From Nitrospirota bacterium (GTDB taxonomy: Bacteria; Nitrospirota; UBA9217), in contig CAVTRN010000002.1 in the NCBI GenBank assembly GCA_963737155.1, positions 2,912,001 to 2,976,000 on the forward strand: 64,000 nt of DNA, written 5' to 3'. A model generated the notes under the pieces. That model worked only from the letters and a program-made list of their open reading frames with translations. It was not told the DNA's origin and ran no database searches. This document shows, piece by piece, positions 859-34,947 of this stretch (positions within the stretch are counted from its first letter, which is position 1; each line of letters starts with the position of its first letter). Made by a program: the position numbers and the translations under genes.

Positions 859-982
859 ATGAACCTCTCCGCAGCAAGCGCCAGGTATCTATAAAAAGGA
901 GGACGATCATCTTTTGAGAAACCTGCGGTTTCTCAACTCTTCCCTCTATACAATTCCCTACAGCAAGCTGCAGGGAATTGCA
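859..982 (+). mobile_element. Three-hairpin dispersed element, copy 1 (IS200/IS605-derived MITE/PATE-like)
   Basis: atgaacctctccgcagcaagc...tatctataaaaagg...ttgagaaacctgcggtttctcaa...ccctacagcaagctgcagggaattgca; closely matches copies at 18749, 21733 and 34838. Confidence 0.75.
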
Positions 983-1294
983 GCCGAAATTTAACGGAAA
1001 CTTCATTTTCTCTTCATATTCCTGTAATATTTCCCCCATATTATATACAGTAGCATAAGAGAATGCCCCATGTTTCGACACTGTATGATTGTCTCCCTTT
1101 GCAAGAACGTAATAAGGGGACCAAAAACCACCCTTTGTTTTAGAGGTCGTCGGAGAAACCGTGAACTGCGCTGCATCTTCATGCTGTGCTAAGATACCCC
1201 CCTTGTTGGAGCAAGGTGTTCAATCTAGGATAGCGCTGATAGTCGTCGAACATTAAGTAATGAATTTGATTCAACCCAATAAGGAGACGCCATC

Positions 1295-1525
1295 ATGCCT
1301 AATCACACGACAACAGATCTTTCACAACACAGTTACAATAAAGACAATGATTTGCACGTCCACGCTATAGACAAACTCGTTCATGAGCTCGGCATCCCGG
1401 CTGAAGAAGTAAACCGGTCTTATCGGGAGGTTCTAGATGATCTAAAAAAAGATGTCAAAGCGAAGGCCACCCTCCCGATCCTCGCAAGCATAGGAGTCAA
1501 ACGACGTCTTCTGCAGAAACAGTAA
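1295..1525 (+). CDS. DUF3562-like small helical protein
   Basis: SD aaggag upstream; pattern AIDKLVHELGIPAEEV..Y...L..L....K....LPIL. Confidence 0.6.
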   Translation: MPNHTTTDLSQHSYNKDNDLHVHAIDKLVHELGIPAEEVNRSYREVLDDLKKDVKAKATLPILASIGVKRRLLQKQ

Positions 1526-1865
1526 TTGGTACGAACTATATGCCATGATGGCATTGTTCAGAATCTTCCGGGACGGGAGGCCTTGTGTCCCAGTACCCAT
1601 GCACGGCAATATTAATTAATAGCGAGCGGTACATTCTTTGTTCAAATCAGCACATATGGTCATGTATGTAGATTATATCGTCAGACAAATTATGCCTGCA
1701 TATAAAAAACAATTTGTCTATGTCAAAATTAGTAAATTTAGCTGATTTAATGCAATTTCTTAGACTCTAGAAATAAACGCGCCTGCATCTGGTAATTATC
1801 ATAGATGCAAATCTTATATAATTATAAAGTATTAGATCGAAGTCAATTTGACCTCACCCCAAATA

Positions 1866-1947
1866 CCCCCTGTACAATAACCCCTTGTAAAATCACACTG
1901 ACAACCCCTGTAAAATCATTGACATCACGGTGCACGAAGTGTATATT
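1866..1947 (+). promoter_or_regulatory. Three direct repeats (cccc(t)tgta(c/a)aat) running into a TTGACA-17-TATATT promoter
   Basis: Repeats at ~1867, 1881 and 1905; TTGACA 1919-1924; TATATT 1942-1947. Confidence 0.55.
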
Positions 1948-2059
1948 CGCTTAAAATATGGCAATTGCGTATGCTGAATAATAGGTTACTATGCTCGCAA
2001 TTTGAATGTATGGTCAAACATAAGCAGCAACTGGTTAAACCTGCGTCTCGCATTCCCAG

Positions 2060-2436
2060 AAAATTGACAGCCTTGACCATCTCGTATTATATAACTAATT
2101 AAGGACATCCAGGTCACTATGATTTCTATTTAAAGCATAGAAATCATAGCCGTCAATGGCAGCCACAAGGCTCTTTTCTTTTGCTGTAGAAGGTCAACCT
2201 GCAGCAACATGAAACAAGATCGCGCCAAAGGTTCAACATCCTGTGCTTGCGCCGCCCGTATGTATTTAATCACTTCAGTTCCCCATTCCAAAGTGGTAAA
2301 CTATCTTTCATCTTGAAAGGTGGCCATAATTGAGGAACCGATTCAGCGCACGGCGGCACAGGTTCAAAGTCGTTGGTTTATTTTCGTGACCCAAACATGA
2401 AACTCAATGGAGGTTTCGAATCGTATATCGGCCTGA
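2060..2436 (+). pseudogene. VOC/glyoxalase family protein, decayed
   Basis: Joining frames gives KIDSLDHLVL..KDIQ..DFY..KAL.F..KVNL....KIAPK.QHP....YLIT....VAIIEEPIQRT..TG...VYFRDP...EVSN; several stops and frameshifts. Confidence 0.75.
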
Positions 2437-2996
2437 CAGCTCGATATCATTCATTTCAGTAGTCGTTTTGCTACTTATCGCATGTAACAGTAATAATCCC
2501 GACCTACCGCAAATAATGGTCATGCTTGCCAGGCCAGTTATGGATAATATCCCTATCATCGATCATCAATCCCCGCAGGGATATGTGTGGCGGACACATG
2601 TGTTAGGCTGTTATAAATTTTGAATAAAAAACTGCAGAGAAGATGTGAAAGGATAGGGCATGGTTGAAGATTTTCGGTCCATTAAAAGATCTAATCGTTT
2701 CGGCATGATCTTGACTTGGTGCAACTCCATGTTCCCAAAAACCTAGTTGTAGCCATTTCCACTGATTCGGGCGGATTTTCTTGAAAACTACCTTTTTGAG
2801 ACAATCGAGCATTTATGCAAGCTCACCGCAGTAGAATGCGAGAACGTAAAAAGAACTGGCCCATATATTCATATTTCTTAATTAATCTTACGAATGCCTA
2901 CTTTAGAGCGTATTTAATCTTGAACTATTTGATAAAGGGACCACCATCTCAGGACCTGCAATCATTGTGGTCTTATGAGTTCCCTCGGAGCATTTA

Positions 2997-4274
2997 ATGA
3001 AAGTTGACACGATGAGAAAAATGGATTATTTTGTCGGCGTGCCTCTGTGCTTTGCGGGGACGATCATAAAGAAGCTGTTCGCCCTCTTTGCGAAACCGAG
3101 GACCGGCTCCCGGCCTGGGAACATAATGTTGATTGAGCTTTCGGAGATGGGCAGCACAATCCTGGCGGACCCGGCGATGCAAAAGTTGAAGCTAGCGTTG
3201 CAGGCCAATATCTTTTTCGTCATCTTCAAGAGAAACCGCCCGAGTTTGGGACTTCTGGGCACCGTCCCGCAAGAGAATATTTACACCATCGACGACAGCT
3301 CGTTCCTTGCGCTCGTTGCCGATGCGGTCAAGCTTCCGTTCTGGTCGCGTCGGAAGGACATCGATACGATCATCGACATGGAGCTCTTTTCCCGATTCTC
3401 CGCATTGCTGACGGGATTTTCCGGGGCGCGGTACACCGTGGGATTTCATGCTTTCCACAATGAGGGGCTGTACCGTGGTGATTTCTTGACGCATAAGGTG
3501 TCCTATAACCCTCACCAGCATATGTCAAAAAACTTTATCGCACTTGCAAACGCCCTGATAAAAGATAAAGCCGAAATTCCGTTCTCGAAGACGTTCATCT
3601 CTGATGATGAGACTAAGCTGCGCAAACTTGATACGGGCGAGCTTGCACAGGAATCGATTCGGCGAAAAATCAAAGAAGTCTTTCCCGCTTATGAAGCGGG
3701 GCTGCACAGGATCATCCTCTTTAATGCCAACGCTTCGGAGTTGCTCCCCATTCGGCGGTGGCCGCAAAAACATTATATCATACTGGCAGGGATCATTTTG
3801 GATAGTTATCCGGATGTGGTCATACTGCTGACAGGAGGCGAGGACGATCGAGCGTGGCTTGAGGCTATAAGTTCAGCTGCCCGTAACGAGCGATGTATCA
3901 ACTTTGCTGGACAGACAAGTCTTGCGGAGCTACCCGCTCTATACTCGGTGAGCGCTTTTATGCTGAGCAACGATTCAGGCCCTCCGCACTTCGCATCGGT
4001 AACCGACATGCCTGTCTTCGTTTTTTTCGGTCCGGAGACTCCAAAGCTCTACTGCCCGCTCGGCAATGCGACGCCGATCTACGCCAACCTTGCGTGTTCG
4101 CCCTGCGTCTCTGCGGCAAACCATCGCAAGACTGTGTGTAGCGACAATGTCTGTCTCCAGGTAATCTCTCCAGAGCAGGTCTACGGCATTGTCCGGCCGA
4201 TGCTGGATGAGATCAAAATTGATAAAGTCATAGAAAGTCAGAAATCCGCCATTGTGGCACACAGAGACAGTTAA
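2997..4274 (+). CDS. Glycosyltransferase family 9 (heptosyltransferase-like)
   Basis: Motifs LSEMGS, RRWP, INFAGQTSLAEL, SNDSGPPHFA, FFGP, CSPC...C....C. Confidence 0.9.
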   Translation: MKVDTMRKMDYFVGVPLCFAGTIIKKLFALFAKPRTGSRPGNIMLIELSEMGSTILADPAMQKLKLALQANIFFVIFKRNRPSLGLLGTVPQENIYTIDDSSFLALVADAVKLPFWSRRKDIDTIIDMELFSRFSALLTGFSGARYTVGFHAFHNEGLYRGDFLTHKVSYNPHQHMSKNFIALANALIKDKAEIPFSKTFISDDETKLRKLDTGELAQESIRRKIKEVFPAYEAGLHRIILFNANASELLPIRRWPQKHYIILAGIILDSYPDVVILLTGGEDDRAWLEAISSAARNERCINFAGQTSLAELPALYSVSAFMLSNDSGPPHFASVTDMPVFVFFGPETPKLYCPLGNATPIYANLACSPCVSAANHRKTVCSDNVCLQVISPEQVYGIVRPMLDEIKIDKVIESQKSAIVAHRDS

Positions 4275-4378
4275 ATAAATTATTAAATTGGTTTACTCCG
4301 AGCCTGCGGTGATCCCATGGTTAATTCAGATTTTTATGGGTTCCTCAGAATTGGCGCAATATAAGGAGCAGTATTATA

Positions 4379-6082
4379 ATGTTCTCATTGGTAACAGAAT
4401 CTCCTGCGCAGGGAGGGTTAGATCAGGGGATCACGAAACGGGACTATCTTTCCATTCTCGTTCTGTGCGCTCTCTGCATCGTTGTTTTGTTCTTTCAACT
4501 GGGCGACAGACCCTTGTGGGATGTCGATGAGGGCATGCACGCCGCAACATCAAAAGATATGGTCTTGACCGGTGATTGGGTCACTACCAAGTCAAACGGC
4601 GTAAATTTTTATGACAAGCCGGTGCTCTTCAACTGGTTTGCCGCAATCTCATTCGTCGTATTCGGGTTCACAGCGTTTGCGGCACGGCTGCCGGCCGCAG
4701 TCCTCGGTCTTGCGACGGTCCTCGTGAGCTACGCGTTCGGAAGGCTATTGTTTGGCTCCCGGGCCGGTCTTCTGGCAGGCGTGGTCCTAGCCACCAGCCC
4801 GGAGTTCATCGTCCTTTCCCGAACGGTGATGCACGACATCTCCCTGGCCTTCTTCATCAGCCTAGCCCTGTATTTCTTTTACGCCGCGTTCAGCAATCAA
4901 CGGCATCGCCGGATACGCCTGTTTCTGTGTTATGCCGCGATGGGTTTCGCCGCCTTGGCCAAGGGGCCCATCGGGCTCCTGCTGCCAGGCATGATCATCG
5001 GTCTCTTTCTCCTAGTAAAGGGCAGACTCAATTTCCTGAAGGAGATGTCCCTGGGATGGGGAACACTTATTTTTCTGCTCGTCGCCGCGCCCTGGTACGT
5101 GCTCATAAGTATGAGAAACCCGGATTATCTATCGTATTTTTTTCTCAAGCTAAATTTCGGGAATTTCCTATCGAATACGCAAGCCCATCATCTCCAGCCT
5201 TTTTATTACTATATTCCAGTCCTGCTTGGCGGCATGCTGCCGTGGTCATGTTTCATACCCCTGGCCTTTCTCCGGCCCCTGAATAGGAAGCTGCAGAAGA
5301 TCGACGATGGTGTACTTTTTCTTCTGTGCTGGTTCCTGGTGATCTTCCTCTTCTTCTCTGTGGCGAGCTCCAAACTCGGCACCTATATCCTGCCTGCATT
5401 ACCGGCGGCTGCTTTGCTGATCGGGAGGGCCTGGCAGGAAATCATGACGACCCCGACTCCCGGCTTGCACCGAGGCACTACCTGGTCCCTCGCACCCCTG
5501 CCAGTTTTCTTCCTGGCGGGTACGGCGTTCATTATGCTGTTCCAACCGCAGGTAATAAAGTTACAACTGCAGTACGGAATAAACCTTCATGACCTGTATG
5601 GTTTCTTGCTTATGTTCACCGGCATCGTGACCGTCGCCTTTTTCTTCCATGTCTTCCGGCATTACCGTGCTTCCTTTGCGACCCTAGCCGCGACATTCGT
5701 CGTGGGGATCATCGTTGTCAACACGGTTTATATTCCCCTTATCAATCCCTATCGCTCTACCCTGGCACTGGCAAAGGAAATGGACGGTATGCTTCCTCCT
5801 GGGGAGAAGCTCGTTTTTTTCGGAAGGATAAGAGATACGGCCTTGTTCTACACGAATCGCAGGGCAGCCATTCTCTCCAGTGAACAAGAGCTGCTGAACT
5901 ATTTCGCTTCAAATAAAAGGGCCCTGTGCGTCATCGACCGGGAACAGTACCAGAAGTTTGAACGCGTGCTCAAATGCTCCTACGTCTTGGGGGAGGAAGG
6001 AGACAAACTGCTCATATCCAACAGACCGACGTCTTTATCTTATACAGCGGGCGGACCGGCAGCAAACTGCCGACAGGAATGA
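4379..6082 (+). CDS. ArnT/GT83-like GT-C integral membrane glycosyltransferase
   Basis: LWDVDEG, GDW..., FYDKP.LFNW, AARLP, LAKGPIG, APWY, HLQPFYYY, SKLGTYILP; multiple TM helices. Confidence 0.9.
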   Translation: MFSLVTESPAQGGLDQGITKRDYLSILVLCALCIVVLFFQLGDRPLWDVDEGMHAATSKDMVLTGDWVTTKSNGVNFYDKPVLFNWFAAISFVVFGFTAFAARLPAAVLGLATVLVSYAFGRLLFGSRAGLLAGVVLATSPEFIVLSRTVMHDISLAFFISLALYFFYAAFSNQRHRRIRLFLCYAAMGFAALAKGPIGLLLPGMIIGLFLLVKGRLNFLKEMSLGWGTLIFLLVAAPWYVLISMRNPDYLSYFFLKLNFGNFLSNTQAHHLQPFYYYIPVLLGGMLPWSCFIPLAFLRPLNRKLQKIDDGVLFLLCWFLVIFLFFSVASSKLGTYILPALPAAALLIGRAWQEIMTTPTPGLHRGTTWSLAPLPVFFLAGTAFIMLFQPQVIKLQLQYGINLHDLYGFLLMFTGIVTVAFFFHVFRHYRASFATLAATFVVGIIVVNTVYIPLINPYRSTLALAKEMDGMLPPGEKLVFFGRIRDTALFYTNRRAAILSSEQELLNYFASNKRALCVIDREQYQKFERVLKCSYVLGEEGDKLLISNRPTSLSYTAGGPAANCRQE

Positions 6083-6101
6083 TAGATAGCAGGCGAAAAT
6101 A

Positions 6102-7169
6102 ATGAATAGCTATTTGGACGAAGAAAAAAATACACCCCTCGCCCCCAGCGAAGGGGATGGCCCGAAGCTCTGGGGCTGGCATTCTCTCGCGAGCATCGCC
6201 ATCACTGTTGCGCTTCTTGTCATTTTGGCGTCGTATGTGGACTTGGCGCAGGTCTGGCGGGAGTTGATCGCCAGCGACAAGCAGCTGCTCGTTCTCGCTG
6301 CGCTCTCACATTACGGCACCTATCCGGTGCGAGGAATCCGCTGGAGAAGAAGCCTGAACCACGTACCGCATCGCTGCGGCAACGCCAGTTTCGGGCTCCT
6401 CGTGTTCTTTTACAATTTTGTGGACAACGTGGTGCCGGCCAAGTTGGGAGACATCTATGCCTCGCACCTTGCTCGCATCAACTGTGGGGTCCGTCGCTCG
6501 GCCGCCCTGGGCTCCATCATTTTTCTGCGTATGATCGATGCATGGCTCGTCCTAATCCTGGCTTTAGGTGCTTCGTGGTACCTTTTCGAAGCGGCGTTCC
6601 CAAAGTCTGTTGCCTGGGCCTTGGTGATCGCGCTTTTGATCGCTCTTGCCTCCAGCTCCGTTATAGTGGTCTTTATCGTACTAAAGCGTGCCGTGCCGGC
6701 TTGGGTACCCGAGACTGTTCGCCAGAGGATTGGCGCTTTTCATACCGGCATGCTGCCGAACCGGGAAGAAATCATTCCCATTCTTTTCCTGACCATGGTC
6801 ATCTGGACAATGGAGTCAATGTGGTTTTTTCTCCTTGCTAGGGCGTTTCATGTGCATCTCAACGCGGGAGAGGCCCTGTTCCTGACCATGATCCCCATGA
6901 TCGTCACTGCGTTCCCTTTAACCCCATCCGGCGCTGGCGCTGTAGAATTGACGCTCTTCAGCTGTCTTCGTCTCGTGGGTGTAGCAATACCGCTTGCTGC
7001 ATCTCTTACTGTCGTGAACCGGTTCATCGATTTCTGGTTGCACATCCTCTTGGGCGCCTTCACGTGGATGATCAGGAGAACGATCCCCCTCCGTACATGG
7101 AAAGACAGCCCAGACAGGGGCGACACGACAATCAATACTACCACCATTGAAAAGGAGATAGCGCCTTGA
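6102..7169 (+). CDS. Lysylphosphatidylglycerol-synthase TM region / UPF0104 flippase-like protein
   Basis: R..RW, NVVPAKLGD, R..D, P.TPSGAGAVE, ..VNR motifs; stop overlaps next start (TTGA). Confidence 0.85.
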   Translation: MNSYLDEEKNTPLAPSEGDGPKLWGWHSLASIAITVALLVILASYVDLAQVWRELIASDKQLLVLAALSHYGTYPVRGIRWRRSLNHVPHRCGNASFGLLVFFYNFVDNVVPAKLGDIYASHLARINCGVRRSAALGSIIFLRMIDAWLVLILALGASWYLFEAAFPKSVAWALVIALLIALASSSVIVVFIVLKRAVPAWVPETVRQRIGAFHTGMLPNREEIIPILFLTMVIWTMESMWFFLLARAFHVHLNAGEALFLTMIPMIVTAFPLTPSGAGAVELTLFSCLRLVGVAIPLAASLTVVNRFIDFWLHILLGAFTWMIRRTIPLRTWKDSPDRGDTTINTTTIEKEIAP

Positions 7170-8584
7170 ACATCCATACCATACAACTTTTGCGCGTCAG
7201 TTCGTCAGTAGACAAGGACGTGGAGCACCCACAGTTCTTCGATCCTCCCTACGCGCTCAAATGCCTCCAGGCCGGCCTAGAAGAGAAGGTGGACCTACAG
7301 GTCCATCTTCTCGATTGCTGGATTAGACCGATGAGCATCTCTAGCCTGCTGGACCATTCGGCATCCATTAGGCCGGACCTCGTGGTCGTTTCAGCATCGA
7401 GCTTCGACATCGACGTGGCCGACCAGTACGTCAATGCCTTGAAGACGCAGGAACATCCGCCCCTCGTCATCGGAATCGGCCAGGGTTTTTATCACCACCG
7501 GGACCGGGACCGGGAACAAACGGAAATGTACGACGCTATCCTGCTGGGAGAACCGGAGCAGGAGTTCTTTCGGCTCTTCGACCAAGTATGCGCTAACAAC
7601 ATGGCCTCGGCCGACTGGAAAACACAATATCGAAAATACTTTGACGACGGTAAACGTTTTATGGTTGAAGAACCGGACAGGCTGATTTTTCCTTCGTACA
7701 CGACCGACGAATTGGCTGCCTATCAATCCATATTCCCGGTACAGATCCCGCATCGCGCGGTCTGGGGTTACCTCGTTGCTACTCGGGGTTGTCCCCATAA
7801 CTGTATGTTCTGCAGTGAAGTGATGCGCGTCAGTACTGGCAAGAAACTCAGAAGCCGCTCGGCCGCTAGCGTGGCCGATGAGATGGAGCACCTGGCCAAG
7901 CAAGGCGTCAACATCTGCTCATTCCAGGACGACAGCTTTTCGGCAAACCGAAAGTTTATGCAGTCTCTCTGCGAGGAATTGATCAATCGCGCATCGAGGA
8001 TGCCCTGGATGGCCAGAGTCCGCGTGGATGAGCTTAACTACGAGTTGCTGGCACTCATGAAGAAGGCAGGCTGCGTCATGCTAGGCATCGGCGTAGAGTC
8101 GGGTAGCGAGCGGATCATTAAGGCCATGCAAAAACAGAGCGCCAACCGCCCATGGATCGAGCTTTGCAGACAGGTCTTCGGCTGGACCCGGGACCTGGGT
8201 ATCGGCACGAACGCCTACTACGTGATCGGGAATCCGACGGAAACAAGGGAAGAGATCGAACAAACGATCCAACTAGCGCTGGAGCTCAACTCCGACAGCA
8301 TCCAGGTCCACTTCTTTACTCCCTATCCCGGTTCGAAGTCCTGGGACATGTATAAAAGCCAGTTGGCCGATTCCGTATCAAAGCAGCTCTACCATTATGC
8401 CCCTCCGCTTCTGTCGTTAGCAGCCATGCCACCCCACGAATTGGTGAAACTGCGCTCAAGCTTCTACAAGCGCTACCTGTTCAGGCCTCGGTTCGCCCTG
8501 CGCCACCTGTGGCGATATGGGTCATTCTACCTGCACAATTTCAACATATTCTGGAGCCTGCTGGGCATCAGAAAAATATTTTGA
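7166..8584 (+). CDS. B12-binding domain radical SAM protein
   Basis: TRGCPHNCMFC (CxxxCxxC), RS...V.DE, FQDDSF, GVESGS, IGNPTET, FTPYPGS; N-terminal B12-binding-like domain. Confidence 0.9.
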   Translation: MNIHTIQLLRVSSSVDKDVEHPQFFDPPYALKCLQAGLEEKVDLQVHLLDCWIRPMSISSLLDHSASIRPDLVVVSASSFDIDVADQYVNALKTQEHPPLVIGIGQGFYHHRDRDREQTEMYDAILLGEPEQEFFRLFDQVCANNMASADWKTQYRKYFDDGKRFMVEEPDRLIFPSYTTDELAAYQSIFPVQIPHRAVWGYLVATRGCPHNCMFCSEVMRVSTGKKLRSRSAASVADEMEHLAKQGVNICSFQDDSFSANRKFMQSLCEELINRASRMPWMARVRVDELNYELLALMKKAGCVMLGIGVESGSERIIKAMQKQSANRPWIELCRQVFGWTRDLGIGTNAYYVIGNPTETREEIEQTIQLALELNSDSIQVHFFTPYPGSKSWDMYKSQLADSVSKQLYHYAPPLLSLAAMPPHELVKLRSSFYKRYLFRPRFALRHLWRYGSFYLHNFNIFWSLLGIRKIF

Positions 8585-8604
8585 TGCAAAAGGAGAAATG
8601 AAGC

Positions 8605-9867: not shown

Positions 9868-9913
9868 GACATTTTATTATTTTTTTGAAATTCGAAAGGA
9901 ACAGAAACTGCGT

Positions 9914-11090
9914 ATGGACATCCTTGCAGACCGGCTGAAAAACATTCCGCCCTACCTTTTCATGCAGCTCCGCGACAAGATCAGGAAAGCCCAGGCTGAC
10001 GGCGTGGATCTCCATCTCCCTTGCCATTGGGGACCCTGTCGAACCCACGCCTGCCTACATCATAGAAGCGCTGAGAGAGGCTGTGCTCGATCCGGCGAAC
10101 CATCAGTATCCCACTGATGAGCACAAAGGCATGCTGGTATTCCGGCAGGCTGTTGCACGATGGTACGAACGGAAGTACCGTGTGACGCTTGATCCGGAAA
10201 CCGAGGTACTTGCCCTCAATGGCTTGAAGGAGGGTATTCATAATTTTATTATGGCAACCGTCAATCCAGGCGATATCGTGCTGATGACGAATCCTGGGTA
10301 TCCAGCATACCGAGCCAATATCCATATGGCAGGCGCCGAAGCCTACGATGTTCCTCTGCTGGAAAAAAATCGTTTTTTACCTGCTTTCGAGGAAATCCCA
10401 GGAAATGTATGCCGGAAGGCAAAGGCATTCTTCCTCAATTACCCGAACAATCCCACCGGTGCTTGCGCTGACGGCACTTTTTTTTCGCGATTGGTCGCTT
10501 GGGCCAAAGAACAGAAAATATTGCTGCTAAACGATAATCCTTACAGCGAAATAGTTTTCGCGACCGATCGCAGGCAAAGTTTGCTTCAAGTCCCGGGTGG
10601 AAAAGAAGTGGCAGTAGAGTTCAACTCATTAAGCAAGGCATACAACATGACCGGCTGGCGTATCGGTATGGCCGTGGGCAGCGACAAGATCATTCACGCT
10701 ATGTCCAGATACAAGGAGAATGTGACATCCGGTGTGTTCAACGCCATTCAGCTTGCCAGTGTCAGGGCAATGGATGCAGGCGACCAAGATATCGAAAACA
10801 TGCTCACAATATATAAGCGGCGGCGTGATATGGTTTTGCATATTTTCAACGGGATCGGTATCTTTGCGACGGGCGGTGGTGGAACATTCTACCTGTGGCT
10901 CGCCGTACCTCCGGGTTTTTCCTCGTTGGAGTTCGCCACACTACTTTTAGAAGAAGCGGGCGTACTCGTGACGCCGGGCATTGCATACGGACAATATGGG
11001 GAGGGATATTTCCGCCTTTCGCTCACGGTGCCGGATGACCGCTTGAAGCAGGCCTTGGAACGAATTTGCAGAACCCTCAAAAGAGGATGA
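9914..11090 (+). pseudogene. Class I/II PLP aminotransferase (LL-diaminopimelate-aminotransferase-like) with a +1 frameshift near 10010-10013
   Basis: MDILADRLKNIPPYLF..GVD in one frame continues as ISLAIGDP.EPTP...LDPANHQYP in the next; NYPNNPTG, D..Y, SLSKAYNMTGWRIG, YFRLSL; could be an assembly error. Confidence 0.75.
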
Positions 11091-13001: not shown

Positions 13002-13582
13002 GATAGCGTGCCGCTCTTTATACGAGACATTTGTTTTGGTGGAGCTGTGCAGGCGATGGCGTTTACGGAACGGGCTTCGCTATAAATCGATTAAGTTACT
13101 GTATAATTTTCCTGGAGCACATTTGTTTGCATCTTTCTTAGTCAAGCAATACCCTGCAGCATGCTGCGGGGAATAGCAAATTCAATTTTAAGATAAGACA
13201 CACAAATATAAGTGTAACCAGAAATCATTAATCGGCCGCGTGAGAGTAATATATTGGCATAACAAAGATTGTTCCAAATCTATGCACCCGGCTATCGGAG
13301 CTTCATGCTATGGATTTATTCATCGAGGAGGTGTGTCATCAATTTTTTTTCAACTCTTCCTCTGTTTATTAAAGCCTTACCCAAATGACGGCTTGTTGTG
13401 TCATGATTACACCTTGTCAGTTAAGATAAAGGCGCTCAGGTATCATCATCGTGTCACCATATGATTTATTTGATGACACGAGGTCTGATCCAAGGATCCG
13501 ATGTCTCGTCAATCGCCTGTTGCGAGACTGTTCATTCAATTCATCTGCGAGGATCCTATCATACTTTCTTCTGGCAAGTGAT

Positions 13583-18748: not shown

Positions 18749-18881
18749 ATGAACCTCCCCGCAGCAAGCTGCGGGGTATCTATAAAAAGGAAGACGATTA
18801 TCTTTTGAGAAACCTGCGGTTTCTCAAACTCTTCCCTCTATCCGGTGACCTTGTAGCAAGCTACGGGGAATTGCAAGTTAA
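18749..18881 (+). mobile_element. Three-hairpin dispersed element, copy 2 (most perfect copy)
   Basis: CCCCGCAGC-AA-GCTGCGGGG; TTTGAGAAACC-TGC-GGTTTCTCAAA; CCTTGTAGC-AA-GCTACGGGG; ends gaattgcaagttaa. Confidence 0.8.
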
Positions 18882-20989: not shown

Positions 20990-21673
20990 TCAATGTGCAG
21001 ATGAGGTTTCTCCGGACTCGCCGGAAATGACATATACATCGATATCGTCGCTACCCTGCACAATTTCATTCAGAGGCGAACTGAAGAGCTTGTCCTTCCA
21101 GCGGGAATGGGGCGGCTTGCCGATAATTATCATGCTCACGTTGCGGCTGCGAGCATAGGTGAGGATTTCCTCGCTCACATGTTTACCTGTCAATGTCACG
21201 ATCTCGGCACCCAAGCTTTTCGCGAGCTGCATATGATCATTTAGCTGCTTCAGATCGCTTTCCGACGGTTGCACTCGTGAGGGAGCCTCTACGTGCACGG
21301 CGATCCATTCGGCGCGCAGTCCGACCGCCATCCTCTGCGCTACATGGATCAGGCGCATCGAGCGGGGATTCAATCCCACACAAACGAGTATCCATTCCCC
21401 TGCTGGCCAGATTGTTTGGATGCCCTTATCTCGCCGGTAGACCTGCATCTGCTCATCGACACGGTCAGCAGTGCGGCGCAAAGCAAGCTCCCGTAGCGCA
21501 ATCAAGTTCCCTTTACGGAAATATTTCTCGCTGGCGGTAGCTGCCTCTACGGGCATAAATACCTTCCCCTCCTTCAGACGCTTCAGCAGCTCATCGTGCG
21601 GCAAATCTATAAGCTCAATTTCGTCCGCCCTGTCCAGGAAAAAATCGGGGACGGTCTCATGGACGTTGACTCC
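20990..21673 (-). pseudogene. kdpD: KdpD fragment (end of the KdpD domain plus Usp domain)
   Basis: V.ETVPD...DRADEIELID....LLKRL.EGKV, F..GNL.ALRELALRR.A.RVD, ILVCVG, A..LGAE; N-terminus missing and no TM or kinase part. Confidence 0.8.
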
Positions 21674-21732
21674 TACTAATGGATTATTGTGAGATCGAGA
21701 AGGCTGCGATATAATTTTCTTAGAGGAATGAG

Positions 21733-21862
21733 GAACCTCTCCGCAGCAATCTGCAGGGTATCTATAAAAAGGTAGACGATATCTTATGAGAAACCTGCGG
21801 CTTCTCAAATTCTTCCATCTATGCGGTGACCCTGTAGCATGCTACAGGGAATCACAAGTTAA
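21733..21862 (+). mobile_element. Three-hairpin dispersed element, copy 3
   Basis: gaacctctccgcagcaatctgcagggtatctataaaaagg...tgagaaacctgcggcttctcaaa...CCCTGTAGC-AT-GCTACAGGG aatcacaagttaa. Confidence 0.78.
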
Positions 21863-28315: not shown

Positions 28316-28401
28316 CCTTAGAGATTCCCTTCGTTTGGGGCCACATCACTTCAAAACGAGGCTTTGCATCCGTGTGGGAAAGAACAAGCAGAAAAAGACG
28401 A

Positions 28402-29610
28402 TCACAATTCCAGAACGCTCCCCTTATGTTCCGTCGCGTACCAGATTGACAGGTAGTCACGTACTTGTCTTGTAATGAGAAAATTGGCTCGAACAAATTC
28501 TTTACCGCGCTCTCCCATCCGCTTTGCCATGTCAGGATTATTGAGCAGCTGCCGGACCCGGAACGCAGCACCCTCGGGAGAGTGCACAAGGAAGCCGGTC
28601 ACACCGTGCACAATCTGGATCGGAATTCCGCCTACGGCACCGCCGACAACGGGTTTTTCCTTCCACATGGACTCAGATACGGTGAGTCCGAAGCCTTCCT
28701 TGACGGATTTCTGGAGCACAACTGTTGCCAGTCGCTGGAGTGCGTTGATTTCCTTGTCACTGAAGGGCGGCAGAAGCAAGATGAAAATATCCGGGTCATC
28801 GGCAGCATACTCCCGCACTTCAGCCAGGACCGCTTCTCCTTCAGGGTCATCCGTAGCAGGGCTCCCGGCAAGAACGAGGATACAATCGTTATATTTCTTC
28901 ACAATGCGATAGGCCATGATCACGCCTATAGGGTCCTTGAAACGATCGAAGCGCGATACCTGAAGCAGCATCGGCCGATCAAGAGGCATTTTGAACTTCT
29001 TCGCCGCCTCACCGATTTCTTCCGGCGAAAGCTCCCTATTTTTATCGCTCACCGGATCAATTGACGGCGGAATAATGAACTCATCAATGCCCATGGACCG
29101 GGAAAATTTTGCTACGGAGAAGACCGCGGCATGGTATCGGTTGCAGTACATCCTAAGAACATCCCACACATCAAGGCGGGGGTTCGACACGTCGATGTGG
29201 CACCGCCAGATCCACGTACCCTTTTTCGCAAAGTTAATGAGGGGTGCCGGTTGTGGATCATGGATGATAACGGCATCTGCCTCCAGATTTAGCGTCTCGG
29301 CGTTGGCCTTATTTACCTCGAGATGGTGCGCCCACATTTGCTCGGTGAAAGACTCCTTATTTCCCTGAAGTGCGTTATGAATTTTTTTCGTTATAGAATA
29401 AAACTCGCCGTCGCCCTTGATAACCTCCCACCTCGCGTCGATACCCAACTCTTTGAGAATCGGGATCATACGGTGCAGGATCTCCGCCACGCCCCCTCCT
29501 TCCCGCGTGGAGTTGATGTGCAGGAATGTCTTGTTGCTGAACACCTTCCCGAGCTTGCGAAGAAGCACAAGGTCGCTATTCGGCGATATCCCCTTGTAGG
29601 CGTCGATCAT
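28402..29610 (-). CDS. treT: GT4 glycosyltransferase, TreT-like trehalose synthase
   Basis: HINST..GGGVAEIL, TKKIHNALQG, IHDPQP, WRCHID, PPSIDP, QVSRFD.FKDP.GV, QKS..EGFGLTVSE. Confidence 0.8.
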   Translation of the reverse strand: MIDAYKGISPNSDLVLLRKLGKVFSNKTFLHINSTREGGGVAEILHRMIPILKELGIDARWEVIKGDGEFYSITKKIHNALQGNKESFTEQMWAHHLEVNKANAETLNLEADAVIIHDPQPAPLINFAKKGTWIWRCHIDVSNPRLDVWDVLRMYCNRYHAAVFSVAKFSRSMGIDEFIIPPSIDPVSDKNRELSPEEIGEAAKKFKMPLDRPMLLQVSRFDRFKDPIGVIMAYRIVKKYNDCILVLAGSPATDDPEGEAVLAEVREYAADDPDIFILLLPPFSDKEINALQRLATVVLQKSVKEGFGLTVSESMWKEKPVVGGAVGGIPIQIVHGVTGFLVHSPEGAAFRVRQLLNNPDMAKRMGERGKEFVRANFLITRQVRDYLSIWYATEHKGSVLEL

Positions 29611-30272
29611 ATGGCCGTCCCCGCTAATTCCATGTCTTGCCGTGCAGTTTCTTCACACGCCGTCGCAATCCGCGTCCTGATTCCCTCCAGGTTGTGCATG
29701 AACGGATCGATAAACCGCAGCCTCTCTGCAAGATCTTTTTTCCCCAACTCTTCGAACCATTGTGAAAAATCGTTTGACTTCCCTTCAAATCGCCGCCGAG
29801 CGTCAAAAAAGTGATAATACAGGCAACTGTCATCAACATATTTGACAGCCATGGCAAACTCAGCAAGGTTTCTGACACCGATACCGGCATTGACCACCAA
29901 GGTTATCGTTTCATTGAAGAAGAACTCATCACCGGGCATGGCATCCCGGGGCTCCGGAAACCTTTCGAAGTGATCGTCGACAACCTTGAGCAACGCTTTT
30001 CTCAGTGCTTCTATATTGACGAAATCATAAGGATCGATATTGGAGAGCTGCTCGGCTAAGGCACTCTCCTCGAGACTCGCGCCGGCCCATTGAGAGAAAT
30101 CATTTGTATACTCAAGCATGTGCCCTTTCAATAAGTACTGATAAGTATGATGGGATATGGCCCCTTCGCTGACAACCGCGAGCGCATCCCTGAACTCGTG
30201 AAGGGTTTTTACCTTCTTCCCTGTGGCTTTGATAATGGTTACACACTGTTTGAATTCGAAGACTTCGCTCAT
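29607..30272 (-). CDS. DUF5752-family protein with an internal duplication
   Basis: F.F..C; two copies of H...NDFSQW...L...LAE.L..IDP; stop overlaps the treT start. Confidence 0.8.
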   Translation of the reverse strand: MSEVFEFKQCVTIIKATGKKVKTLHEFRDALAVVSEGAISHHTYQYLLKGHMLEYTNDFSQWAGASLEESALAEQLSNIDPYDFVNIEALRKALLKVVDDHFERFPEPRDAMPGDEFFFNETITLVVNAGIGVRNLAEFAMAVKYVDDSCLYYHFFDARRRFEGKSNDFSQWFEELGKKDLAERLRFIDPFMHNLEGIRTRIATACEETARQDMELAGTAI

Positions 30273-30529
30273 TCGACCCCTCTTCACACTCTCATGAAAA
30301 CGTCCTGCCGGGACAAGACATATTGATGCTTTCAAGATAAATCTGCGGAATACCAACGTCAGGACAAGAAAGATTAGTACTTTCTGTAGTACTCCGCCTT
30401 AGTGCACTCATTTAAGCGATACTGCGTCGCATATACTAATTGAAGTATAACAGAACAGGGTCTGCAATGGGATTCTCGCATGGTGAAAAAACATGCGGTT
30501 TTCAATAGTAATATTTAAGCAGCCCACCG

Positions 30530-30950
30530 AGCTTCTCCCGACATTGAATAGCATGATCGTGCTTTTGTCATACCAGCAAGATGGATGACCCGGATGAAAA
30601 AGAGGATGTAATAGGTTGAATCAAGCAGCAAACGGTCCACACTTCCGCTGTGATAAAATCTGTTGACGAAAGTAAGACCCACGGGGTGCGGATAAACCTT
30701 TTCCACGTGGCAGGCCTTTTCCGCTCCGGTGCGGGTGCCAGGTCGTGCCGTTTTAAGATGCTTCCCACCGTCTGATCACTTACCATATTCCCCAGATCGG
30801 CCAGCGCCCAGACAATACGATCATAGCTCCAGTTTTTATTTTCCTTAGCCAGGCGTATGATCAAAACTTCCAGCACAGCCTATATCTTTGGTCTACTCTG
30901 CATAGCCCTGTACTCGAAATCGTCAAACTTGCGGACGATCAACCTGCGGT
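30530..30950 (-). pseudogene. Integrase-core (rve) transposase remnant
   Basis: IIRLAKEN..W.YDRI..AL..LG..VS.QTV..ILKRH...PAP.R....TW..F....DF.T.EV; truncated and frameshifted. Confidence 0.8.
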
Positions 30951-31250
30951 AAATGTCCCCGATATGCTCCCCGCGGCGGTAAGCAATTATTTACTATGAT
31001 GTGAATAAGCATACATAAGAACCTTGCATTTAATCAGCAGCGAAACCGAGTTTATCATAACCCAACGATCCCTGTATTTTGAGGTTTCATGATTTTAGAA
31101 TATCGCTACATCACTGAATATGGCTTGTTTTACAGGCATGTCGTTGCTCCCGCAGCGAAACGCTGAGAAACCGCGCCTAACATAATTGTGATACGTTGAT
31201 TCAAGCAAATACCTCTAACCTAATCGAACTTGGCCGAACCCAGCAGCATG

Positions 31251-31391
31251 TTAACGGTGCTCTCCATGCTCACCACCCCAGTGTTCTCCATGTTCTCCAT
31301 GCCAACCTCCGCCCCTTCCGCCCCACCAAAAACAACCGCTGGATACGAGCAACATGACCACAATTATCAATAGTCCAATTTTTTTCTTCAT
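31251..31391 (-). CDS. 46-aa Gly/His-rich lipoprotein (not in ORF track)
   Basis: MKKKIGLLIIVVMLLVSSG-CFWWGGRGGGWHGEHGEHWGGEHGEHR*; SD aagga; lipobox-like SSGC. Confidence 0.75.
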   Translation of the reverse strand: MKKKIGLLIIVVMLLVSSGCFWWGGRGGGWHGEHGEHWGGEHGEHR

Positions 31392-31645
31392 AATGATTTC
31401 ATCCTTTCTCTGTTTCTCTCGGGTCGAATCAATTTCCTGCTAAGATATCCATCAGCCGCCACTGATTCAGAAGAAGACAGTCGACCTTCTAGTGCAAGTT
31501 GCAAATCTCCAGCTCAGCTGTTCGCCAGGCTTTCCGTTCCGAACAACGCGGTTAAACAAACTCACTCGGCCAATGCAGCCATTTGAGGGAATGAGCACAA
31601 GCCTTGCCGATAAATATTCCCCACTTTTTAGAATAGCTCAATAAT

Positions 31646-32455
31646 TTAATGCCAATCAATTCCCTTTGAACGCAAATTATTGCGGGCTTCTTCATCCCCT
31701 AACTTCGCAGACATTTTAAGATTTTGAATATACATGTCATTATTTCCTAACTTCTGATAAGCAACCCCACGATTATAGTATGCATCCGCATCTTTCGGAT
31801 CCAGTTCTATTGCCTTGCTGTAATCATTGATTGCATTTTCATGGTTTCCTAAAGCTTGATTAGCAATCCCACGATTATAGTATGCATCCGCATCTTTCGG
31901 ATTTAGTTCTATTGCCTTGCTGTAATCATTAATAGCCTGCACTAGGTTTCCTGAAGCTTTATAAGCATTCCCGCGATTATAGTATGCATCCGCGGCTTCC
32001 GGATTAAGTTCTATGGCCTTGCTGTAATCATTGAGAGCCTGCTGATAGTTCCCTGAAATTTTATAAGCAACCCCGCGATTCCTATATGCATCCGCATTTT
32101 TCGGATCTAGTTCTATTGCCTTGTTGTAATCATTGATAGCCTGTTTAAGGTTTCTTAAAACCTTATAAACATTCCCGCGATTATAGTATGCATCCGCATT
32201 TTTCGGATCTAGTTCTATTGCCTTGCTGTAATCATTGATCGCCTGCTGATAGTTCCCTAAAGCTTTATAAGCAATCCCACGATTAACATATGCCATTGCA
32301 TCTTGCGGATTAAGTTCTATTGCCTTGTTGTAATCATTGATGTTCTGTTGATTTTCTGATGCACTATTGCTATCAGCTAAAGCTATGGTGGCTAACAATA
32401 GTGAGGCTATCAGTCCTATAACCGCTAAAACTACTTTAGCTCTATTCGTTGCCAT
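31646..32455 (-). CDS. Secreted tetratricopeptide-repeat protein
   Basis: Signal peptide, SD aaggagg, ~6 consensus-like 34-aa TPRs (AYYNRG..Y...G...AINDY.KAIEL.P). Confidence 0.9.
   Translation of the reverse strand: MATNRAKVVLAVIGLIASLLLATIALADSNSASENQQNINDYNKAIELNPQDAMAYVNRGIAYKALGNYQQAINDYSKAIELDPKNADAYYNRGNVYKVLRNLKQAINDYNKAIELDPKNADAYRNRGVAYKISGNYQQALNDYSKAIELNPEAADAYYNRGNAYKASGNLVQAINDYSKAIELNPKDADAYYNRGIANQALGNHENAINDYSKAIELDPKDADAYYNRGVAYQKLGNNDMYIQNLKMSAKLGDEEARNNLRSKGIDWH
31700..32345. repeat. 102-bp tandem DNA repeats encoding the TPR units
   Basis: Recurring ttctattgccttg(c/t)tgtaatcatt and gattatagtatgcatccgc at 102-bp period. Confidence 0.85.
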
Positions 32456-32981
32456 GAATTGTTCCTCCTTTTAATGGGTAAATATCGCGTTATGCCTAGC
32501 GAAGTAAAAAATGACCGACGAGGTATTATTCTTAAGTATTGCAGTAGAGATTAATCATGTCAAGTGCTAGAGAAAAATAATGTGTTGTAGATTTTGGGAA
32601 AAAGGGGAGATAATCATGGATCCTTTTTTATTGCTGGGAATAGGAAAGGCCCATACGGTTGAAAATGGGTTGGGATATCAAAACAAAGAGATATGGTTGC
32701 ATCTTCGTTACGAGGATTGTATCTTTAGCGGCTTTTGCCACTTTGAATTTGACAACTTTCTTGCCTTAATTTGTATAGTCTCGCCTGTTGCGGAGCTCCT
32801 CCCTACGTGCATTACGCCGAACGAGAACGTGTTTACCAAGTTACGGCATCGTCCAAGAGTTTTTGGCTTCCTTGTGAGCTACCCACACTGGTTACCTCCC
32901 CGATTGTTTTGTCACTTGGAAAGATGAACTTTTAGGTTGATTGCCTCTGGAGCCAGCTATGCTCGTAACGAATCGGGGCCC

Positions 32982-33260
32982 TCACACACTTAAAACTGGA
33001 TTCGGCACCGCACAGAGGACTGCGTAGCCGCAGGTCCGTAGACGACCGCAATAAGGGTAGCACCCGGTAACCAGCAAGTCCGTCTTCGCCTTTTTCACAG
33101 CTTGGCTCGGCGCCTTGGGCGCATCACCACTGCCGATAAATTCGCCTGCCTTGATGCCTATGTCTTGCTCGAGCTCTCCAATATGCTGAGTAGCGTCATC
33201 TACAAGCGCCCCTTTCTACTTTTGATTGATATAGCTGTCACCTGGCTGGTAGATTCACTC
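32982..33260 (-). pseudogene. Universal stress protein C-terminal remnant
   Basis: ..IGSGDAPKA..QAVKKAKTDLLVTG....GRLRT.GYAVLCAVPNPVLSV*; stops upstream. Confidence 0.7.
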
Positions 33261-33286
33261 TGCCGATAAAAGGGTACGTTTTCTTT

Positions 33287-33450
33287 GGGAGTTATATACT
33301 TAACTTCACAATCTTTGCAACTTGTTGATAAATAGGTTATAGCACTAACTCCCGTAAACATTTAAAACACTCTGTAATTAACAATATATTTATGCAATAC
33401 CAATTAGTTAGGGGGAATATACAGTTTTTGCTGTAAAGTATATAATTCCC
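33287..33450. mobile_element. ~164-bp AT-rich MITE candidate with terminal inverted repeats
   Basis: Left end GGGAGTTATATACTTAAC vs right end (reverse complement) GGGAATTATATACTTTAC, 16/18 match; non-coding interior. Confidence 0.5.
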
Positions 33451-33613
33451 TTTCCTATATAGTGACCGCCTATTTAGTGACGTGGCCACAAATCAGCGAA
33501 ATTACTATTCGCGCATCCCGTTGGAAACCAACCATCAACAGAAACAAGAATAGAATAATGGAACGTGCGCATTTATTATCGTGTACGCGGCCCATAAGAT
33601 TATGGCGTGCCAT

Positions 33614-34033
33614 CTACTTGATCTCAATACGATGCTGAAGCAGGAACACGAGGACAACTACGAGAAGAGCCACGACCAAAAGGTCTGCGATCACCCCCCA
33701 CATCCCCTTCCGCCTGAAGTAATGCTGTGTGCGTCGCGAGTTGCCTGATTTGCTCGTCGGACATCGTGTTGATTCGTAAAATCACTTCTTCGGGAGTGAG
33801 CCCATAATCCAGAAGTTCTTGCCTTACGATCTTCGATTCAAGCGCAGTCCTTATCCTAACTGTGTCCGCAGTTCTGCCGGCTGACATTATCGCTGCGCCA
33901 GAAATATCCTAAAGTGGTGCAGCAGGGAGGAACATGGCTTGGCCGGCTTAACGAAGGTAGATACCGCGAGGAGCGCTGCGACCAGATAGAGTATGAGCGG
34001 TTTTGTATAGGATGCCTTGAGCATACCATTCAT
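33614..34033 (-). pseudogene. PA2779-family protein, decayed paralog of 38219-38635
   Basis: MNGML..Y.KP..LYLVAALLA.STF..., IRTALESKIV.Q.LLDYGL; frameshifts and an internal TAG; upstream DNA also resembles 38169-38220. Confidence 0.8.
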
Positions 34034-34065
34034 TTTGATTACCTCCGGTTCCAGTGTTAACCTTG

Positions 34066-34330
34066 CTATCTCGTGATTATCACGCTGTGATCCGAGGTTT
34101 CCAGTACGACAACTGTGATAGTCGCCGCAAGGAGGAGAAATATCACCAGGCCGATACCATAGTCCCCACCTGCTTGTAGAGAGTTCAAGTTTACTGAAAG
34201 CTGATGAATCTATTCGCTAGAAAGCCAGCAGATCCTCGCTTGGGTATCATCCGCAGTGAATCCGAAATCCATGAGTCGTTGTCTGATCACGTTCGACTCG
34301 AGTACTTTCTGAAATAGTTTCCAAGTCGTT
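34066..34330 (-). pseudogene. Second PA2779-family remnant, tandem upstream of the first
   Basis: QKVLESNVIRQRLMDFGF..D.TQARI..LS.E*IHQL..NL.SLQAGGDYGIGLVIFLLL...VIITR*. Confidence 0.75.
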
Positions 34331-34837
34331 TTCTGCTTATGTAAAAGAGCATAAACCCTGACACTTAAGGTTGAGATGTCTCGATCACTGCTATTTAAAT
34401 AATTTGAGGACTCAAAATGTCAGCATTCTATCTCTATACTATCCTGCAAAACTCCAGAAGCGACAAAAGTCAATGCAGCTATTGACATTCCTTCAAAGCG
34501 CGATATGATTCATACAAAGAGGAAAATAAATGTCAAAATTTTTCTTACATTAGCAACCAGAAAGTTAACAAATGCTAAAAGCGTATATTTTATCGTTCTT
34601 AATTCCGAGTCAAAAGTCGTATCTGAAAAAATTTGGCTAACAGTACGATTACATGGGCCGTAAGTAACAAGGGCAAGCACAGAACCGATATGTGCAGAGA
34701 GACGTACATTGATATAAAAAATATGAAGATCTTCATGTTCGGAGACAAGATCAAAATTGTGAATGGTTCACTAAGAGCTCAACCGGTGAAGATGGAACCC
34801 GTCAACCAAAACAGGCTGCGAAGTAAGGATATTAATC

Positions 34838-34947
34838 AATACCCGCAGCAAGCTGGCGGGGTATAAAAGAAGATTGATCAAGTGAGAAACCTGTGGTTTC
34901 TCTTACTCTTCCCTATCTAGCAAGCTAACGGGGAATTGCAAGTTTAA
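34838..34947 (+). mobile_element. Three-hairpin dispersed element, copy 4 (degenerate, shorter)
   Basis: cccgcagcaagctggcggggtataaaagaaga...tgagaaacctgtggtttctc..actcttccct..tagcaagctaacggggaattgcaagttt. Confidence 0.7.

What the first reader, a model, noticed from the sequence alone, without database searches (positions are those of the whole stretch)
859..34947. Unannotated ~125-bp three-hairpin element in four co-oriented copies
Seen: copies at 859-982, 18749-18881, 21733-21862 and 34838-34947, all on the + strand. Each has GAAC-hairpin 1 (CCCCGCAGC-AA-GCTGCGGGG), TAT(CTAT)AAAA, hairpin 2 (TGAGAAACC-TGY-GGTTTCTC), hairpin 3 (CCYTGTAGC-AW-GCTACRGGG) and GAATTGCA, with point variants. Hairpins 1 and 3 are variants of each other in direct orientation. 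Some differences keep pairing (C-G vs T-A or G-T). No terminal inverted repeats, target duplication or real ORF. Known: IS200/IS605 ends are two similar subterminal hairpins recognised by the Y1 transposase TnpA, insert without duplication, and give rise to non-autonomous PATE/REP-like derivatives. Inference: a lineage-specific TnpA-mobilised mini-element, or a mobile structured RNA whose conserved central hairpin is cargo. Four copies in 35 kb suggests many more genome-wide.
Basis: partly seen in the sequence, partly recalled or inferred. Interest (0 to 1): 0.75.

Follow-up and report, generated by a model that had tools for sequence, protein, structure and literature searches.

The report
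Miniature IS200-type transposon with central hairpin
The four repeats are ageing copies of a tiny (about 125-base) jumping-DNA element that has no gene of its own and most likely borrows a transposase from IS200-type insertion sequences; this kind of element is known, but this family, with its conserved middle hairpin, turns up in several unrelated bacterial groups and was not found in the catalogues searched.

Summary
Observation confirmed: four co-oriented three-hairpin copies (profile E 1e-30 to 7e-48). They are non-autonomous IS200-type elements (PATEs), read on the minus strand: hairpin 3 is the left end, hairpin 1 the right end. An autonomous 538-bp IS200-family element on a Legionella plasmid has all three hairpins in the same order around tnpA. 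A GTDB scan for the central hairpin alone gave 71 hits in 18 MAGs (Patescibacteria, Omnitrophota, Nitrospirota, others); 70 carry IS200-type ends at fixed spacing, none encloses tnpA. Guide and cleavage tetranucleotides fit the IS608 pairing rule (right end 57 of 65, left end 48 of 58), end hairpins show compensatory changes, insertion is 3' of TTAA-like targets, and the active strand is the G-rich strand in 56 of 70 loci. An empty site exists for an autonomous relative only. No cognate tnpA in the window; no Rfam match; ISfinder unchecked. The family is not lineage-specific, though this subfamily is Nitrospirota-like (91% identity). Open point: why the central hairpin is kept, also in minis with other ends. 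New variant of a known kind; interest 0.35.

The parts
18749..18877 (-). Copy 2, best preserved element, 129 nt: left end, central hairpin, right end
   Evidence: (111.5 bits); 91% identical to the Nitrospirota MAG subfamily
18878..18881 (-). Target tetranucleotide TTAA (left cleavage site, outside the element)
   Evidence: TTAA precedes 17 of 21 AATT-guide copies and all 3 copies of the Legionella IS
18869..18872 (-). Left guide AATT at the 5' foot of the left hairpin
   Evidence: predicts TTAA under the IS608 pairing rule
18849..18868 (-).
   Evidence: compensatory changes across the family
18789..18835 (-). Central hairpin: core 18804-18828, outer stem GGAAG 18831-18835 paired with CTTCC 18789-18793
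   Evidence: related hairpin in the 5' region of the Legionella IS
18777..18780 (-). Right guide GATA
18757..18776 (-).
   Evidence: flagged as terminator-like on the minus strand, 1 site against 0.6 expected
18749..18752 (-). Right cleavage site TCAT, last four bases of the element; followed by T from the target
   Evidence: T in 64 of 64 called ends; empty site of an autonomous relative
859..984 (-). Copy 1; target TTAA no longer present, right hairpin damaged; intergenic
   Evidence: (86.1 bits)
21731..21858 (-). Copy 3; target TTAA at 21859-21862, left guide GATT, right terminus altered; lies between a 5'-truncated kdpD and a TIGR03118-family gene
   Evidence: (94.2 bits)
34835..34942 (-). 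Copy 4, about 109 nt; left hairpin lost one arm; right end of the TGAT type (guide TATA), as in MAG JBAYLH
   Evidence: 67.9 bits
13149..13174 (-). Solo end hairpin with a left-end-like 5' side and no central hairpin; remnant or core-deleted copy (inference)
   Evidence: (E 2.5e-7)
43656..43721 (-). Right end of a second mini family (guide GATG) that has three full copies in the Nitrospirota MAG
   Evidence: E 5.6e-11

Best explanation
The element is a PATE: a non-autonomous IS200-type transposon of about 118-132 nt whose active (top) strand is the window's minus strand. When that strand is single-stranded, mostly as lagging-strand template, a Y1 TnpA dimer supplied in trans by an autonomous IS200-family element binds the left and right hairpins; the 4-nt guides at the 5' foot of each hairpin pair with TTAA (left) and TCAT (right) to set the cuts; the strand is peeled out as a circle and pasted 3' of another TTAA, before a T, without duplication. 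Shown here: anatomy, homology of both ends to autonomous tnpA elements, guide/cleavage fit, boundaries, multicopy spread, strand bias. Taken from the IS608/ISDra2 literature: the chemistry. Inferred: that the mini arose by loss of tnpA from an element like the Legionella IS, keeping its second left-end hairpin; that the central stem is kept because it folds the tiny strand compactly and keeps the interior from pairing with ends or targets; that the four decayed window copies are now mostly immobile.
For: (1) Legionella plasmid IS, 538 bp, three copies, tnpA scoring 139.7 bits on NF033573 (cut-off 55): left hairpin, central-hairpin variant, tnpA, right hairpin, in the order of the mini; right end identical to copy 2 at 28 of 32 positions with paired changes. 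(2) Central-hairpin-only scan: 49 of 71 hits show both ends, 14 are cut by contig ends or Ns, 7 lost one end, 1 has none (my tally from the printed rows). (3) Right guide/cleavage fit 57 of 65, with GATA/TCAT 54, GATG/TCAC 2, CATA/TGAT 1; left fit 48 of 58, AATT/TTAA 17 of 21, TATT/TAAA 28 of 32, GATT/TCAA 3 of 5; further pairs in autonomous relatives (CATA/TGAT, GATT/TCAA, CATT/TGAA, AATA/TTAT). (4) 60 cells with two-sided changes, all in the end hairpins, against 18.5 in shuffles and at most 10 in slid controls (26 sequences). (5) Empty site of the Synechocystis relative: insertion after TTGAT, before T, no duplication. (6) Top strand G-rich in 56 of 70 loci, 53 of 66 after removing overlaps, as expected for lagging-strand-template insertion (PMC5027513 passages). 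(7) Near-identical copies at unrelated sites: 9 copies at 98-100% in MAG CAYUHZ. (8) IS200-family tnpA genes lie within 2 kb of minis in two MAGs.
Against: No tnpA in the window and the rest of the genome is not available. None of the 71 hits is an autonomous element with the exact central hairpin, so the cognate parent was not found. No base-level empty site for any mini; only presence/absence between syntenic intervals of two MAGs 64-71% alike. The pairing rule fails for the Legionella left end (CATT with TTAA, 3 copies), MAG PFPK (4 copies), Megaera, Chroococcidiopsis and L074. The left-end test is one-sided: 29 of 32 TATT-guide flanks also contain TTAA. Copies within a genome are not independent. 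The skew result is confounded with gene direction (50 of 70 have most coding on the top strand). The 3' arm of the outer stem is not seen in the Legionella IS. The L074 TnpA lacks the first His of the HUH motif and L048 has another end family and a frameshift.
Confidence: 0.85

Rival explanations
1. Composite origin: the ends are a PATE as above, but the central hairpin is a separate small palindromic unit (REP-like, or like the SMR-A repeats that target PATEs in Haloquadratum) that entered IS200 ends more than once and now rides along.
For: The same module sits between a different family of end hairpins in L052 3121-3251 and L006 1834-1965; one free-standing copy (L013); absent from 11 of 12 autonomous relatives; a second Nitrospirota mini family has an unrelated central hairpin; SMR-A targeting of PATEs is described (PMC3119063 passages).
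Against: 70 of 71 exact hits carry IS200 ends at a fixed distance and orientation; a free repeat should often stand alone. A second left-end hairpin is a normal part of IS608, ISDra2, IS605 and IS200 (PMC5934647, PMC4513863 passages), and the Legionella IS has it in that position.
Confidence: 0.1
2. A structured RNA (small RNA, terminator or mRNA stabiliser) kept by the host; mobility is incidental.
For: Strong folding as RNA (z -2.0 to -5.5); intergenic, often co-oriented with neighbours (19 of 36 sites have both neighbours on the top strand); Salmonella IS200's 5' stem-loop acts as RNA (PMC4513863 passages); G.T rather than A.C on the top strand in the central stem, 13 against 1, though from about three events.
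Against: Guide/cleavage covariation and a fixed target outside the element are DNA-transposition signals; sites are unrelated between copies; window copies are decaying; no Rfam match; end hairpins show no wobble asymmetry (11 against 8); no promoter inside copy 2.
Confidence: 0.03
3. A REP/REPIN system moved by a domesticated RAYT (TnpA-REP).
For: Short intergenic palindromic repeats in many copies.
Against: The two end hairpins are in direct, not inverted, arrangement, with distinct left and right termini; no GTAG or CGTC tag; the transposases flanked by these ends score as IS200 (139.7 and 142.9 bits) and far below the RAYT cut-off (26.9 and 24.5 against 80).
Confidence: 0.02

Closest known systems
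PATEs (palindrome-associated transposable elements; Haloquadratum, PMC3119063; Geobacillus ISGst1/ISGst5 PATEs, bioRxiv 10.1101/2023.03.14.532601; Halanaerobium, PMC7290912)
   Same: No gene, no terminal inverted repeats, no duplication, similar near-terminal palindromes at both ends, ends shared with IS200/IS605 elements, homogeneous expansions, core-deleted solo forms.
   Different: Those were described within single genomes or genera and tied to IS605-type (TnpB/IscB) parents; this one matches tnpA-only elements, keeps a fixed length and a third conserved hairpin, and recurs in several phyla. The supplementary PATE sequence tables of PMC3119063 were not read.
Autonomous IS200-family element on Legionella longbeachae plasmid NZ_CP020895.2 (tnpA WP_085662914.1; no IS name in the record)
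   Same: Left hairpin 5 nt from TTAA, second hairpin in the same place, nearly identical right end ending TCAT before T.
   Different: 538 bp with tnpA; central stem one pair shorter; left guide CATT does not fit the rule; lacks the 3' arm of the outer stem.
IS608 / ISDra2 (mechanistic models of the IS200/IS605 family)
   Same: Subterminal hairpins, guides at their 5' foot pairing with cleavage sites, unpaired A at position 3, preferred base after the cut, second hairpin 3' of the left hairpin, lagging-strand-template bias.
   Different: Targets here are TTAA, TAAA or TCAA followed by T (IS608 TTAC|C, ISDra2 TTGAT|G); no tnpA or tnpB; second hairpin longer and sequence-conserved.
Salmonella IS200
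   Same: tnpA-only family; left end with two inverted repeats, the second in the tnpA 5' UTR.
   Different: There the second repeat hides the ribosome-binding site and has an antisense RNA (PMC4513863 passages); here there is no gene to regulate. Sequence homology to it was not tested.
REP/REPIN/BIME with RAYT
   Same: Short multicopy intergenic hairpins handled by HUH Y1 enzymes.
   Different: Directly oriented, asymmetric left and right ends with fixed termini; no GTAG/CGTC tag; linked transposases are IS200, not RAYT.

Membership tests
PATE | Too short to encode a transposase | tested here: met
   109-132 nt (one of 158 with an insertion); no TnpA match inside any hit
PATE | Palindromes near both termini, no terminal inverted repeats | tested here: met
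   termini CTTGC... and ...TTCAT are not complementary
PATE | Ends related to those of IS200/IS605 transposons | tested here: met
PATE | No target duplication | tested here: inconclusive
   Shown for an autonomous relative by an empty site; for minis only from unrelated left and right flanks; no empty allele of a mini
PATE | Evidence of mobility as a unit | tested here: met
   Copies 97-100% alike at unrelated sites in MAGs CAYUHZ, DOMK, PFPK, CAZUJQ; presence/absence in syntenic intervals L043/L054 and L022/L063. Indirect; no strain-level allele
IS200/IS605 end system | Guide tetranucleotides 5' of each hairpin pair with the cleavage sites | tested here: met
   Right 57 of 65, left 48 of 58; exceptions listed; pairs 1 and 2 of the rule from PMC3201880/PMC5934647 passages, pair 4 recalled and consistent with the IS608 motifs printed there
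IS200/IS605 end system | Insertion 3' of a conserved tetra/pentanucleotide left outside the element | tested here: met
IS200/IS605 end system | Top strand on the lagging-strand template | tested here: inconclusive
   G-rich top strand in 56 of 70 loci and in 4 of 4 window copies, weakly; local skew only, confounded with gene direction
IS200/IS605 end system | Cognate Y1 TnpA in the host genome | not testable with these tools
   None in the window; rest of the genome unavailable
IS200/IS605 end system | Strand-specific cleavage and circle formation by TnpA | not testable with these tools
   Bench assay needed
Autonomous IS200 | Encodes TnpA | tested here: not met
REP/REPIN with RAYT | GTAG/CGTC-tagged hairpins, inverted pairs, RAYT-class partner | tested here: not met
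MITE (DDE type) | Terminal inverted repeats and target duplication | tested here: not met
Known RNA family (Rfam 15) | Match at gathering score | tested here: not met
Named ISfinder element or derivative | Entry in ISfinder | not testable with these tools
   ISfinder is not among the tools

The most novel reading that the evidence does not exclude
The central hairpin is a functional module specific to the miniature life-style: it is kept at sequence level across phyla and across at least two unrelated families of IS200 ends because it lets a 125-nt single strand fold into a transposable unit (or binds a host or TnpA factor), so that these minis persist as an old, parent-independent lineage that swaps TnpA partners and re-programmes its own target by changing guide bases.
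Probability: 0.2. Interest if true: 0.6.

Novelty: new variant of a known kind. Interest (0 to 1): 0.35.

Why it matters
The class (PATE) and the chemistry are known, so this is not a new system. It matters modestly for three reasons. It gives a natural series of target re-programming (TTAA, TAAA, TCAA; TCAT, TCAC, TGAT) in one small family. It shows recent transposition bursts in Patescibacteria MAGs (up to 17 exact hits in one), invisible to gene-based annotation and a cause of contig breaks (14 of 71 hits are cut by contig ends or Ns). And it offers a very short substrate on which the unsettled role of the second left-end hairpin (minor for binding, limiting extended target pairing in IS608, PMC5934647) can be tested directly.

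Tried and rejected
Rfam: window at gathering score, none; three short regions at relaxed E, only chance hits far below cut-off. Phage collection: no real match with copy 2 or a Patescibacteria copy. Plasmid collection: no full mini; no match for the second family; chance hits only for the free-standing hairpin; no other element with the Legionella left end. Empty sites: none for the Legionella IS or the Nitrosomonas IS; found for Synechocystis; no window region is homologous to any fetched locus over 150 nt. TnpA in the window: none. Promoter inside copy 2: none. The long ORFs that start inside copy 3 (21786 +, 21808 -) are read-through artefacts: the family matches begin outside the element. 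A first automatic call of right cleavage sites picked an upstream TAAT in 19 copies; it was redone with TAAT excluded, which is the count used. One left-end row (L025) is a mis-parse and counts among the 10 misses. Invariance of the central stem is due to the search pattern and is not used as evidence. The tree of minis (17 rows, one per MAG plus three window copies; L061 and copy 4 left out) groups by host and has 4 of 14 well-supported branches: it does not show recent cross-phylum transfer. Paper searches found no description of this family; one search found no paper with two of six short motifs. Metagenome and viral contig collections and ISfinder stayed unchecked.
Full report
Observation. 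The four copies are real and co-oriented. A profile from the copies finds them at E 7e-48 to 1e-30 and finds one more short relative at 13144-13188 (E 2.5e-7); the central hairpin occurs only in the four copies. All eight strands fold better than shuffles as DNA and RNA. The copies are 62-86% alike and each is damaged somewhere. Rfam has no match. The neighbouring genes (glycosyltransferases, trehalose and glycogen enzymes, small proteins) have no link to the element.

First lead. Copy 2 against plasmids hit the 3' ends of genes annotated tnpA, IS200/IS605 family, in 3 of 15 records. On the Legionella longbeachae plasmid the gene lies on the opposite strand between a hairpin-1 homologue and, at its 5' side, a hairpin-2 variant followed by a hairpin-3 homologue. 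The element is 538 bp and has three copies, each after TTTAA and each ending TTCAT before T. Its protein scores 139.7 bits on NF033573 and 26.9 on the RAYT model, cut-off 80. So the window element is read on the minus strand: hairpin 3 is the left end, hairpin 1 the right end, and about 30 nt stand where tnpA would be (alignments).

The family. The one GTDB scan used a 29-nt pattern for the central hairpin only (chance expectation about 0.004 at equal base frequencies, my arithmetic). It gave 71 distinct hits in 18 MAGs: titles name Patescibacteria groups for 10, Omnitrophota for 2, Nitrospirota for 1, Planctomycetales for 1, Gammaproteobacteria for 2 and only 'bacterium' for 2. One of the Gammaproteobacteria shares gene order and 64-71% identity with the Falkowbacteria MAG, so that title is doubtful. 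From the printed rows I count 49 with both ends, 14 cut by contig ends or Ns, 7 with one end lost and 1 with none. None encloses tnpA. Lengths are 118-132 nt, one 158. Between MAGs identity is 54-91%; copy 2 is 91% identical to the Nitrospirota subfamily and 59-79% to the rest. Within MAGs it reaches 98-100% at unrelated sites. The tree groups minis by host and is weakly supported: an old shared family with local bursts, not proven recent transfer.

Mechanistic signals. In IS608 the four bases at the 5' foot of each hairpin pair with the cleavage site: guide base 1 with site base 2, base 2 with base 1, site base 3 an unpaired A (PMC3201880 and PMC5934647, passages); the fourth pair is recalled and fits the motifs printed there. 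Applied here, the right end fits in 57 of 65 copies, with GATA/TCAT 54, GATG/TCAC 2, CATA/TGAT 1; 8 miss. The left end fits in 48 of 58: AATT/TTAA 17 of 21, TATT/TAAA 28 of 32, GATT/TCAA 3 of 5; AATT families show TAAA in only 1 of 21, but TATT families also contain TTAA in 29 of 32, so the test is one-sided. Autonomous relatives add CATA/TGAT, GATT/TCAA, CATT/TGAA and AATA/TTAT, and exceptions: Legionella, Megaera, Chroococcidiopsis, L074. The base after the right end is T in 64 of 64 called ends; a preferred base there is known for IS608 and ISDra2. An empty site in Synechocystis PCC 6803 shows that the related autonomous element inserted after TTGAT, before T, with no duplication. On 26 of the full copies the named structure has 92.8% paired cells and 60 cells with two-sided changes, all in the end hairpins, against 18.5 in shuffles and at most 10 in slid controls; the number of pairs with such a change, 8, is not above shuffles (82 of 500). 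[quoted passage not shown]

How it works. A TnpA dimer from an autonomous IS200-family element binds both hairpins on the exposed top strand, cuts after TTAA and after TCAT, releases a single-stranded circle and inserts it at another TTAA|T. The anatomy and target logic are shown; the chemistry is taken from the family; the partner enzyme is not identified. No tnpA is in the window. In two MAGs a tnpA lies within 2 kb of a mini: L074 has the same end type but an altered HUH motif, L048 another end family. The window copies look decayed and are probably inactive (inference).

The central hairpin. Its invariance in my set is forced by the pattern. Outside the pattern, the covariance search and a relaxed scan found variants with paired changes in two minis that have a different family of end hairpins (L052, L006), in the Legionella IS, and not in 11 other autonomous relatives (one lacks a visible left end). 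An outer stem, GGAAG with (C)TTCC, forms in most subfamilies and its 3' arm is not in the Legionella IS. A second hairpin 3' of the left hairpin is normal in IS608, ISDra2 and IS605, where it limits extended target pairing and is dispensable for cleavage (PMC5934647; PMC3201880), and in Salmonella IS200, where it represses translation (PMC4513863, passages). The simplest reading is a retained left-end hairpin; a mini-specific role or a hitch-hiking unit is not excluded.

Comparison with what is known. PATEs were defined in Haloquadratum as gene-less elements with near-terminal palindromes related to IS605-type ends, with homogeneous expansions, core deletions and targeting by small repeats (PMC3119063, passages; supplements not read), and reported in Geobacillus with guide covariation (bioRxiv 10.1101/2023.03.14.532601, passages; supplements closed) and Halanaerobium (PMC7290912, first quarter of the text and passages). 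The element meets the testable PATE features. It is not a REP/RAYT system (PMC6006769 and PMC3733652, passages) and not a MITE with inverted termini. Eight paper searches found no account of this family; ISfinder, metagenome and viral contigs were not checked, and subscription papers are outside the library.

Verdict. What remains worth a look is the cross-phylum family with a conserved central module and naturally re-programmed targets.

Noticed in passing
L037 7135-7289, L062 2223-2375 and 3781-3933; window 43656-43721 (-): A second mini family in the Nitrospirota MAG (about 140 nt, guides AATA/TTAT and GATG/TCAC, a different central hairpin); one copy lies within about 20 nt of a first-family copy. 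The window holds a related right end.
   Followed up: partly
L052 3121-3251 (-), L006 1834-1965 (+): Minis with another family of end hairpins (like those of the tnpA element in L048) that carry variants of the same central hairpin; L052 also shares the spacer before it with the window copies.
   Followed up: partly
L025 1604-1743, L028 2174-2293, L033 3957-4086: Three Falkowbacteria copies at different sites share one deletion of the left hairpin, which places the TATT guide before a small palindrome; the shortened form may itself have moved.
   Followed up: partly
L029 136-278, L071 3463-3554, L014 6252-6324, L004 1486-1534: Solo forms: left start fused to right terminus around one hairpin (core deletions, as described for Haloquadratum PATEs), and perfect palindromes made of two like ends.
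   Followed up: no
L074 1-642: An IS200-family element whose left end abuts a right end of the local mini type at the contig start, like a right-left junction or tandem insertion; its TnpA has an altered HUH motif.
   Followed up: partly
L013 4001-4029: The only hit with the central hairpin and no IS200 ends, next to another small hairpin.
   Followed up: partly
L061 3955-4121: A copy with a roughly 30-nt insertion inside the right hairpin, recalling small repeats that target PATE palindromes.
   Followed up: no
window 20990-21667 (-): A kdpD fragment lacking about the first 160 residues begins about 60 nt from the right end of copy 3; no link shown.
   Followed up: partly
window 31641-32450: Six 102-nt repeats inside ORF 31646-32455 (-), TPR-like protein (label from the sequence pattern, not from a family search).
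   Followed up: no
L043/L054, L022/L063: A MAG titled Gammaproteobacteria (CAYUHZ) is syntenic with and 64-71% identical to a Falkowbacteria MAG; the title may be wrong. Minis sit in different intergenic gaps of the shared gene order.
   Followed up: partly
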